NCBI RefSeq assembly: GCF_003334305.1
Contig: NZ_QOWS01000006.1
Reading direction: 5' to 3' (one strand)
DNA length: 64,000 bases
Source: Escherichia coli
Lineage (GTDB): Bacteria; Pseudomonadota; Gammaproteobacteria; Enterobacterales; Enterobacteriaceae
The notes beneath the pieces are model-generated. The model saw nothing but the letters and a program-made list of their open reading frames with translations, did no database searches and was not told the origin of the DNA. The translations under genes were made by a program, and so were the position numbers. Positions 1,010-1,347 of the stretch are shown one piece after another; position 1 is the first letter of the stretch, and the number at the start of each line of letters is the position of its first letter.

Positions 1010-1347
1010 CGTTTCACTCCATCCAAAAAAACGGGTATGGAGAAACAGTAGAGAGTTGCGATAAAAAGCGTCAGGTAGGATCCGCTAATCTTATGGATAA
1101 AAATGCTATGGCATAGCAAAGTGTGACGCCGTGCAAATAATCAATGTGGACTTTTCTGCCGTGATTATAGACACTTTTGTTACGCGTTTTTGTCATGGCT
1201 TTGGTCCCGCTTTGTTACAGAATGCTTTTAATAAGCGGGGTTACCGGTTGGGTTAGCGAGAAGAGCCAGTAAAAGACGCAGTGACGGCAATGTCTGATGC
1301 AATATGGACAATTGGTTTCTTCTCTGAATGGCGGGAGTATGAAAAGT
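1010..1347. promoter_or_regulatory. araBAD/araC divergent control region (PBAD, PC, araI ~1071-1108, CRP site ~1119-1150, araO1, araO2 ~1283-1312)
   Basis: Sequence is the reverse complement of the classical pBAD promoter fragment (tagcatttttatccataagattagcggatcctacctga = araI; ccaattgtccatattgcatcagacattgccgtcactgcg = araO2). Sub-site coordinates are approximate. Confidence 0.9.

What the first reader, a model, noticed from the sequence alone, without database searches (positions are those of the whole stretch)
1010..1347. Native araC-PBAD control region, identical in arrangement to the widely used pBAD cassette
Worth noting because this exact fragment is common in plasmids. Here it is flanked by native araB and araC-yabI, so it is chromosomal context rather than vector. 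araO2 lies inside the araC leader, about 35-65 bp upstream of the araC start.
Basis: partly seen in the sequence, partly recalled or inferred. Interest (0 to 1): 0.1.

Follow-up and report, generated by a model that had tools for sequence, protein, structure and literature searches.

The report
Native E. coli araBAD–araC control region
This is the ordinary chromosomal copy of the textbook arabinose switch of Escherichia coli, the DNA between araB and araC where AraC and CRP bind; it is already fully known, and it is not a cloning-vector fragment.

Summary
Window 1010-1347 is exactly the 338-bp araB–araC intergenic region of a wild-type E. coli chromosome. It lies between araB (minus strand, ATG at 1009) and araC (1348-2226), followed by yabI and thiQPB. 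The whole 64-kb window is colinear with K-12 MG1655 69,040 to about 133,400. The first 25 kb are 100% identical to natural isolates. The 338 bp occur in 5,399 of 5,426 complete E. coli genomes.

All canonical elements are present on the araBAD strand:
- araI2 at 1071-1087
- araI1 at 1092-1108
- PBAD -35 at 1069-1074 and -10 at 1045-1050
- CRP site at 1119-1140
- araO1R at 1145-1161 and araO1L at 1166-1182
- araO2 at 1303-1319

The araO2 half-site lies 29-45 bp upstream of the araC start codon, not 35-65. The fragment is also not the exact vector allele. The two vector cassettes available carry the E. coli B allele. They differ from the window at one intergenic base (1250) and at 15 bases over the cassette. 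They end at 1023 or 1037, where foreign sequence begins.

A Klebsiella comparison shows the sites and their spacing conserved while the spacer between them diverges.

Verdict: already known, low interest.

The parts
1..1009 (-). 5' part of araB (ribulokinase, first 336 codons; the window begins inside the gene)
   Evidence: Translation hits the NCBIfam ribulokinase equivalog PRK04123 at 535 bits against a cut-off of 428. Same coordinates as b0063 in MG1655.
1017..1020 (-). araB Shine-Dalgarno GGAG, 7 nt upstream of the ATG; missing from the vector cassettes
   Evidence: Read from the sequence. The cassettes end at 1023 or 1037.
1036..1036 (-). Inferred PBAD transcription start (A), giving a 27-nt araBAD leader
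   Evidence: Inference. It places the araO2 centre (1311) at -275, as stated in PMC12133099, and araI2 at -35 to -51. It was not measured here.
1045..1050 (-). PBAD -10 hexamer TACTGT
   Evidence: Invariant in K. pneumoniae. Too weak for the sigma-70 consensus scan, as expected for an activator-dependent promoter.
1069..1074 (-). PBAD -35 hexamer CTGACG, overlapping araI2 by 4 bp
   Evidence: The 4-bp overlap of the AraC and RNA polymerase contacts is described in PMC11983282. Invariant in Klebsiella.
1071..1087 (-). araI2 half-site TAGCGGATCCTACCTGA
   Evidence: Fits TAGCxxxTxxxxCCxxA given in PMC11983282.
1092..1108 (-). araI1 half-site TAGCATTTTTATCCATA, 4 bp from araI2 as a direct repeat
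   Evidence: 10 of 10 consensus positions, the only such site in the 64 kb.
1119..1140 (.). CRP (CAP) site AAGTGTGACGCCGTGCAAATAA, core 1122-1137
   Evidence: Two mismatches to TGTGAN6TCACA. That match is not above chance by itself. Support comes from its position between araO1 and araI1 and from near-invariance (20 of the 22 site positions, all 16 of the core) in Klebsiella.
1145..1161 (-). araO1R half-site CGGCAGAAAAGTCCACA
   Evidence: 7 of 10 consensus positions. It lies 4 bp from araO1L in the same orientation. Invariant in Klebsiella. The site name is from my own knowledge.
1166..1182 (-). araO1L half-site TAACAAAAGTGTCTATA, overlapping the candidate Pc -35
   Evidence: 8 of 10 consensus positions. 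Conserved in Klebsiella. PMC11983282 places araO1 in the Pc promoter.
1168..1196 (+). Candidate araC promoter Pc: TAGACA (1168-1173), 17-bp spacer, TGTCAT (1191-1196); start near 1202, leader about 146 nt
   Evidence: Inference from the sequence, supported by my recollection of the EcoCyc araCp start (MG1655 70,241 = window 1202), which would put CRP at -72.5. Not verified with any tool or paper here. An alternative start near 1183 is not excluded.
1303..1319 (-). araO2 half-site GAAACCAATTGTCCATA, 211 bp in register from araI1 and 29-45 bp upstream of the araC ATG
   Evidence: The 210-bp O2-I1 separation and the xAxxxxxxxxxTCCATA motif are given in PMC11983282. In Klebsiella it is a conserved island inside divergent sequence.
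1334..1337 (+). Probable araC Shine-Dalgarno GGAG, 10 nt before the ATG
   Evidence: Read from the sequence. Inference only.
1348..2226 (+). araC (292 aa)
   Evidence: NCBIfam NF007860 AraC equivalog at 512 bits against 208. Pfam AraC_binding plus HTH_18. PDB 2ARC, 1XJA and 2K9S match at E of 1e-67 to 1e-124.
2312..3076 (+). yabI (DedA family), native downstream neighbour of araC
   Evidence: Same coordinates as b0065. Weak DedA-family match.

Best explanation
This is the native divergent control region of the E. coli L-arabinose operon. It should work as described for K-12 and B strains.

Without arabinose, one AraC dimer bridges araO2 (1303-1319) and araI1 (1092-1108). This forms a loop of about 210 bp that keeps PBAD and Pc low.

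With arabinose, the dimer moves to the adjacent direct repeats araI1 and araI2. araI2 overlaps the PBAD -35 by 4 bp, so AraC recruits RNA polymerase. cAMP-CRP bound at 1119-1140 helps open the loop and stimulates both promoters.

AraC bound at araO1 (1145-1182) overlaps Pc and autorepresses araC. araO2 sits in the transcribed, untranslated araC leader.

Shown here: the identity, positions, spacing and conservation of every element, and the chromosomal context. Inferred from the literature: binding, looping, the transcription starts and the regulatory outcome.
For: Context:
- Gene order araB / araC-yabI-thiQPB has coordinates identical to MG1655.
- The window is colinear with MG1655 69,040 to about 133,400 at 97-99% identity.
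- The first 25 kb are 100% identical to wild isolates.
- The 338 bp are present in 5,399 of 5,426 complete E. coli genomes, one copy each as a rule.
- There is only 1 SNP against K-12 (1332) and 1 against E. coli B (1250), neither in a mapped site.

Sites:
- araI1, araI2, araO2 and the -35 and -10 hexamers were located exactly.
- The I1-4 bp-I2 composite occurs once against 0 expected.
- The five top-scoring minus-strand half-site matches are I1, O1L, O2, O1R and I2, all in one orientation, with the I1/I2 and O1L/O1R pairs each spaced by 4 bp.
- The O2-I1 register of 211 bp agrees with '210 bp' and with positions P43-48 against P254-259 in PMC11983282, and with 'O2 275 bp upstream' in PMC12133099.

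Conservation: in K. pneumoniae the TCCATA of O2 and of I1, the CRP core, and the -35 and -10 hexamers sit at identical offsets from the araC ATG, while the O2-O1 spacer is scrambled.

Protein: AraC is an equivalog-level match and matches the solved AraC domains.
Against: Nothing contradicts it.

Caveats:
- No binding or expression data exist for this particular strain.
- The CRP match alone is not above chance (18 matches against 26 expected at 2 mismatches or fewer).
- A half-site consensus score of 7 or more is expected about twice by chance in 338 bp, so the argument rests on arrangement and conservation.
- The sigma-70 scan finds neither PBAD nor Pc, which fits weak, regulated promoters.
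- The Pc start site could not be verified from any paper that was held.
Confidence: 0.98

Rival explanations
1. The fragment is a vector-derived or engineered araC-PBAD cassette (pBAD type), either integrated in the chromosome or present as contamination in the assembly.
For: The same arrangement is carried by expression and genome-editing plasmids. pCAGO (KY563785) and pK-1L-2 (CP072462) match window 1023-2188 and 1037-1714 at about 99%.
Against: In those plasmids the homology stops at 1023 or 1037 and runs straight into a cas9-like ORF with a synthetic RBS (the cas9 identification is my own reading of that flank, not a tool result). Here the sequence continues into the native araB leader, Shine-Dalgarno and 1,009 bp of araB. 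On the other side it continues into yabI-thiQPB and 60 kb of colinear chromosome. The cassette is the E. coli B allele (0 of 1,166 mismatches to B) and differs from the window at 15 positions.
Confidence: 0.005
2. It is the native region, but the two natural SNPs that set this allele apart (1250 G against T in B and the vectors; 1332 C against T in K-12) measurably change looping, Pc output or araC translation.
For: 1332 lies just upstream of the putative araC Shine-Dalgarno (1334-1337). 1250 lies in the loop DNA between araO1 and araO2.
Against: Neither SNP falls in a mapped protein site. The exact allele is shared at 100% by many natural isolates. The O2-O1 spacer is free to diverge completely in Klebsiella as long as its length is kept.
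Confidence: 0.03

Closest known systems
araBAD-araC regulatory region of E. coli K-12 MG1655 (70,049-70,386)
   Same: Same length (338 bp), same flanking genes and the same positions of all elements. 337 of 338 bases are identical.
   Different: One substitution, window 1332 C against T in K-12, 16 bp upstream of the araC ATG and outside the araO2 half-site.
araC-PBAD cassette of arabinose-inducible vectors (pBAD type; represented here by pCAGO KY563785 and pK-1L-2 CP072462), which carries the E. coli B allele
   Same: Same order and spacing of araC, araO2, araO1, CRP site, araI1, araI2 and PBAD. 324 of 325 shared intergenic bases are identical.
   Different: The vector copies are truncated at window 1023 or 1037, so the native araB leader and Shine-Dalgarno are replaced. 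They are followed by foreign genes. They carry T at 1250 and 14 further differences inside araC. They match E. coli B at 1,166 of 1,166 bases.
araB-araC intergenic region of Klebsiella pneumoniae (CP125156, misfiled chromosome in PLSDB)
   Same: 337 bp against 338 bp. The mapped motifs of araO2, the CRP site, araI1 and the PBAD hexamers sit at identical offsets, and araO1 and araI2 align without gaps. araO2 and the block running from araO1 to araI2 are conserved.
   Different: The spacer between araO2 and araO1 and the araB leader are largely different in sequence. This is ordinary phylogenetic footprinting.

Membership tests
E. coli araBAD/araC divergent control region (AraC-CRP, DNA-looping switch) | Lies between divergently oriented araB and araC | tested here: met
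   araB on the minus strand ends at 1009 and araC on the plus strand starts at 1348. Both are equivalog-level NCBIfam matches.
E. coli araBAD/araC divergent control region (AraC-CRP, DNA-looping switch) | araI1 and araI2: 17-bp direct-repeat half-sites 4 bp apart, with araI2 overlapping the PBAD -35 by 4 bp | tested here: met
   araI1 is at 1092-1108, araI2 at 1071-1087 and the -35 at 1069-1074. The composite pattern is unique in the window with 0 expected. The motif is as given in PMC11983282.
E. coli araBAD/araC divergent control region (AraC-CRP, DNA-looping switch) | Distal araO2 half-site (…TCCATA) about 210 bp upstream of araI1, in the same orientation | tested here: met
   araO2 is at 1303-1319, 211 bp in register from araI1. 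The distance is identical in Klebsiella.
E. coli araBAD/araC divergent control region (AraC-CRP, DNA-looping switch) | araO1 pair of half-sites overlapping the araC promoter Pc | tested here: met
   1145-1161 and 1166-1182 score 7 and 8 of 10, lie 4 bp apart and are conserved in Klebsiella. The overlap with Pc rests on the inferred TAGACA -35 at 1168-1173 and on the statement in PMC11983282.
E. coli araBAD/araC divergent control region (AraC-CRP, DNA-looping switch) | CRP site between araO1 and araI1 | tested here: met
   TGTGACGCCGTGCAAA lies at 1122-1137. The match alone is not above chance, but it is invariant between E. coli and Klebsiella and sits at the expected place.
E. coli araBAD/araC divergent control region (AraC-CRP, DNA-looping switch) | Cognate regulator AraC encoded next to it (cupin arabinose-binding and dimerisation domain plus double HTH) | tested here: met
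   NF007860 at 512 bits. Pfam PF02311 plus PF12833. PDB 2ARC and 2K9S.
E. coli araBAD/araC divergent control region (AraC-CRP, DNA-looping switch) | Arabinose-dependent switch from O2-I1 looping to I1-I2 occupancy; CRP dependence; autorepression of Pc | not testable with these tools
   This needs footprinting or reporter assays. It is inferred from near-identity (337 of 338 bp) to the alleles on which these experiments were done.
pBAD-type vector cassette | PBAD followed by a synthetic RBS, cloning site or foreign gene; araC followed by vector backbone | tested here: not met
   The native araB leader and gene lie on one side. yabI-thiQPB and 60 kb of colinear chromosome lie on the other.
pBAD-type vector cassette | Carries the E. 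coli B allele of araC-PBAD | tested here: not met
   Cassette against B: 0 of 1,166 mismatches. Cassette against window: 15 mismatches, including 1250 in the intergenic region.

The most novel reading that the evidence does not exclude
The only non-textbook readings left open are minor. First, a sixth AraC half-site-like sequence, TCTACTGTTTCTCCATA (1036-1052, minus strand, 7 of 10 consensus positions), overlaps the PBAD -10 and start site, and it might contribute to repression in E. coli. Second, the natural SNPs at 1250 and 1332 might tune looping or araC translation. The TCCATA at 1036-1041 is not conserved in Klebsiella, and such scores are expected about twice by chance in this region. 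I therefore consider both readings unlikely.
Probability: 0.03. Interest if true: 0.15.

Novelty: already known. Interest (0 to 1): 0.03.

Why it matters
It does not change anything known. Its value is as a sanity check: the scan correctly recognised one of the best-studied bacterial control regions and correctly judged it chromosomal. Two small by-products may be useful. The vector araC-PBAD cassettes available here are the E. coli B allele rather than K-12, so a single base (1250) and 14 araC positions distinguish vector-derived from native copies in most strains. The E. coli-Klebsiella comparison also illustrates that the O2-I1 loop length is conserved exactly while the loop sequence is not.

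Tried and rejected
- The sigma-70 consensus scan over 900-2400 found neither PBAD nor Pc. Both are weak, regulated promoters, so the scan is uninformative here.
- An Rfam search of 950-1450 at E of 1 or less found nothing. There is no known structured RNA in the araC or araB leaders.
- The repeat search found only short, probably chance repeats.
- CRP consensus matching alone is not above chance.
- I tried to document the Pc start site and the araO1 coordinates from primary papers. The Schleif 2010 review, Hahn & Schleif 1983, Carra & Schleif 1993, Zhang & Schleif 1998, Dhiman & Schleif 2000 and Thomason 2015 are not held. The Pc start near 1202 therefore remains my recollection plus inference. 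An alternative, TGGACT-17-GACACT with a start near 1183, was considered. I ranked it lower because it would place CRP at about -54, a non-canonical position, against -72.5.
- The mechanical 309-aa ORF starting at ATG 1297 (inside araO2) was rejected as coding. The Klebsiella counterpart has an in-frame TGA, and the AraC chain in PDB 1XJA begins at the residue encoded at 1348.
- PLSDB holds almost no laboratory vectors: only 2 small plasmids carry the cassette. The claim that the fragment is 'common in plasmids' could not be quantified and rests on general knowledge.

Full report
**What is there.**
Window 1010-1347 is the complete 338-bp interval between two divergent genes. On the minus strand an ORF ends (that is, starts) with ATG at 1009-1007. 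Its 336 codons inside the window are ribulokinase AraB (NCBIfam PRK04123, 535 bits, cut-off 428). On the plus strand, 1348-2226 encodes a 292-aa protein that is AraC. It matches the NCBIfam equivalog NF007860 (512 bits against 208) and Pfam AraC_binding plus HTH_18. It also matches the solved AraC domains 2ARC, 1XJA and 2K9S. Downstream come yabI (2312-3076) and thiQ, thiP and thiB. The coordinates of araB, araC, yabI and thiQ coincide base for base with MG1655 69,040 onward.

**Chromosome or vector.**
- The whole window is colinear with MG1655 69,040 to about 133,400 (araB to acnB) at 97-99% identity, with only three small indel regions.
- The first 25 kb are 100% identical to chromosomes of natural isolates, for example strain A7.
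- The 338-bp region occurs in 5,399 of 5,426 complete E. coli genomes, normally once, and many copies are 100% identical.
- In the plasmid collection, most full-length hits are megabase-sized records, in effect chromosomes or chromosome fragments filed as plasmids. Only two genuine small plasmids carry the region, pCAGO (KY563785) and pK-1L-2 (CP072462).
- In those two plasmids the homology stops at window 1023 and 1037 respectively. It then runs into a synthetic RBS or restriction site followed by a foreign ORF. That ORF reads as the start of cas9 (MDKKYSIGLDIG...); this is my own reading of the flank, not a tool result.
- The window instead continues into the native araB leader, its GGAG Shine-Dalgarno (1017-1020) and araB itself.
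- The vector cassette is identical to E. coli B (0 mismatches in 1,166 bp). It differs from K-12 at 11 positions and from the window at 15 positions.
- Within the intergenic region, the window differs from B and the vectors only at 1250 (G against T), and from K-12 only at 1332 (C against T).
'This exact fragment' is one base off, and the allele itself argues for a native origin.

**Anatomy (minus strand = araBAD direction).**
Exact matches locate the following:
- araI1, TAGCATTTTTATCCATA, at 1092-1108
- araI2, TAGCGGATCCTACCTGA, at 1071-1087, 4 bp from araI1 as a direct repeat
- PBAD -35, CTGACG, at 1069-1074, sharing 4 bp with araI2
- PBAD -10, TACTGT, at 1045-1050
- araO2, GAAACCAATTGTCCATA, at 1303-1319

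The motifs and their relations agree with PMC11983282: TAGCxxxTxxxxCCxxA for I1 and I2, xAxxxxxxxxxTCCATA shared by I1 and O2, O2 and I1 'separated by 210 bp', a 4-bp overlap of AraC and RNA polymerase contacts, and araO1 in the Pc promoter.

The measured O2-I1 register is 211 bp. With the PBAD start placed at A1036 (a 27-nt leader, an inference), the araO2 centre is at -275. That is the value quoted in PMC12133099.

A simple consensus score (TAGCN7TCCATA) ranks I1 (10 of 10), TAACAAAAGTGTCTATA at 1166-1182 (8 of 10), then O2, CGGCAGAAAAGTCCACA at 1145-1161 and I2 (7 of 10 each). All are in the same orientation. The 1145-1161 and 1166-1182 pair is again 4 bp apart. These two are araO1R and araO1L; the names are from my own knowledge.

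The CRP site is AAGTGTGACGCCGTGCAAATAA at 1119-1140.

A plausible Pc is TAGACA (1168-1173), a 17-bp spacer, then TGTCAT (1191-1196), with a start near 1202. This gives a leader of about 146 nt and puts CRP at -72.5 for Pc and -93.5 for PBAD. It rests on the sequence plus my recollection of the EcoCyc coordinate, and I could not document it from the papers held. Whichever Pc start is right, Pc overlaps araO1.

The araO2 position is 29-45 bp upstream of the ATG for the 17-bp half-site. A footprint extending toward araC would move that range closer to the ATG, not further away.

**More than chance?**
- The I1-4 bp-I2 composite pattern occurs once in 64 kb on both strands, against 0.00 expected in 100 shuffles.
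- Single half-site scores of 7 or more (frequency 0.0029 per position and strand) would arise about twice by chance in 338 bp.
- The CRP consensus at 2 mismatches or fewer is not enriched (18 found against 26 expected).
- For those elements the evidence is arrangement plus conservation.

**Conservation.**
An alignment with the K. pneumoniae araB-araC spacer (337 bp) shows conserved islands:
- araO2 (ACCAATTGTCCATATT)
- a continuous block covering araO1L, araO1R and the CRP site
- araI1, araI2, the -35 and -10 hexamers and the araB Shine-Dalgarno

The roughly 115 bp between araO2 and araO1 is almost unalignable. Even so, the offsets from the araC ATG are identical in the two species: TCCATA of O2 at 39, TCCATA of I1 at 250, the CRP half-site at 221, the -35 at 273 and the -10 at 297. 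That is what a loop constrained in length and helical phase would predict.

Within E. coli the most divergent alleles sampled (ST131) differ at 6 of 338 positions.

**Mechanism (inferred from the literature for near-identical alleles).**
Without arabinose, an AraC dimer bridges araO2 and araI1, looping about 210 bp and holding PBAD (and Pc) down. With arabinose the dimer occupies araI1 and araI2, contacts RNA polymerase at the overlapping -35 and activates PBAD. cAMP-CRP assists and also stimulates Pc. AraC at araO1 autorepresses Pc. No experiment on this strain exists. The sequence shows that every required element is intact and correctly spaced.

**Other checks.**
No Rfam family matches the region even at E of 1 or less. 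No notable repeats were found. The sigma-70 scan misses both promoters, as expected for weak, regulated promoters. The mechanical 309-aa ORF from ATG 1297 is not a longer AraC, because the Klebsiella counterpart has an in-frame TGA and the AraC chain in PDB 1XJA starts at the residue encoded at 1348.

**Verdict.**
This is an already-known textbook element in its native place. Interest is very low.

Noticed in passing
window 1023-2188, compared with L002 (pCAGO KY563785), L006 (E. coli B-RalR) and L001 (MG1655): The araC-PBAD cassette in vectors is the E. coli B allele: 0 of 1,166 mismatches to B, 11 to K-12 and 15 to this window. A handful of SNPs (for example 1250, 1395, 1542 and 1701) can therefore separate vector-derived from native copies in strains other than B.
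   Followed up: yes
window 42394-42471 (mutT-yacG intergenic): A single REP/BIME-type unit (Rfam naRNA4/CssrE hit, 78 bits) stands where K-12 MG1655 has a tandem duplication of about 116 bp of the same element.
   Followed up: partly
window 58581-58610 (aceF-lpd intergenic): About 30 bp here replace a roughly 147-bp insert present in K-12. From memory that insert looks like an ERIC/IRU intergenic repeat. Its presence or absence is polymorphic between strains.
   Followed up: partly
window about 60245-60492 (yacH, minus strand): yacH contains internal repeats of about 96 bp. The window allele is 96 bp (32 codons) shorter than K-12, seen as overlapping BLAST blocks with shifted offsets.
   Followed up: partly
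window 36185-36274 (+), ftsA/ftsZ junction: An Rfam hit above the gathering score to PssrA ('plasmid-encoded Shigella sRNA A', 105 bits) lies on the chromosome at the ftsA 3' end and ftsZ 5' region. K-12 annotates the antisense StfZ RNA there. Other expected hits: SgrS 8328-8554, Leu leader 14534-14683, TPP riboswitch 6472-6571, STnc40 41921-41990 and tp2 53746-53859.
   Followed up: no
window 1036-1052 (-): TCTACTGTTTCTCCATA matches 7 of 10 AraC half-site consensus positions and overlaps the PBAD -10 and start site, 56 bp from araI1. Its TCCATA is not conserved in Klebsiella, so it is probably chance.
   Followed up: partly
window 1297-1347 (+): An in-frame ATG inside araO2 gives a mechanical 309-aa ORF, 17 codons longer than AraC. 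The extension carries a stop codon in Klebsiella and is not coding.
   Followed up: yes
L010 (E. coli E423, NZ_CM173464), locus about 1440-2500: An ISApl1 (IS30-like) element is inserted in the ara control region at about window position 1094/1095, inside araI1. It separates araI1, CRP, the O sites and araC from PBAD-araB, so this strain is presumably not inducible for araBAD.
   Followed up: partly
L007 (E. coli ST131 strain 4433): The ST131 allele has 6 SNPs in the 338 bp. Two lie in araI2 (window 1076 and 1077) and two in the PBAD -35/-10 spacer (1062 and 1068). araC is annotated there as 846 nt (281 aa), as in Klebsiella, against 879 nt here.
   Followed up: no
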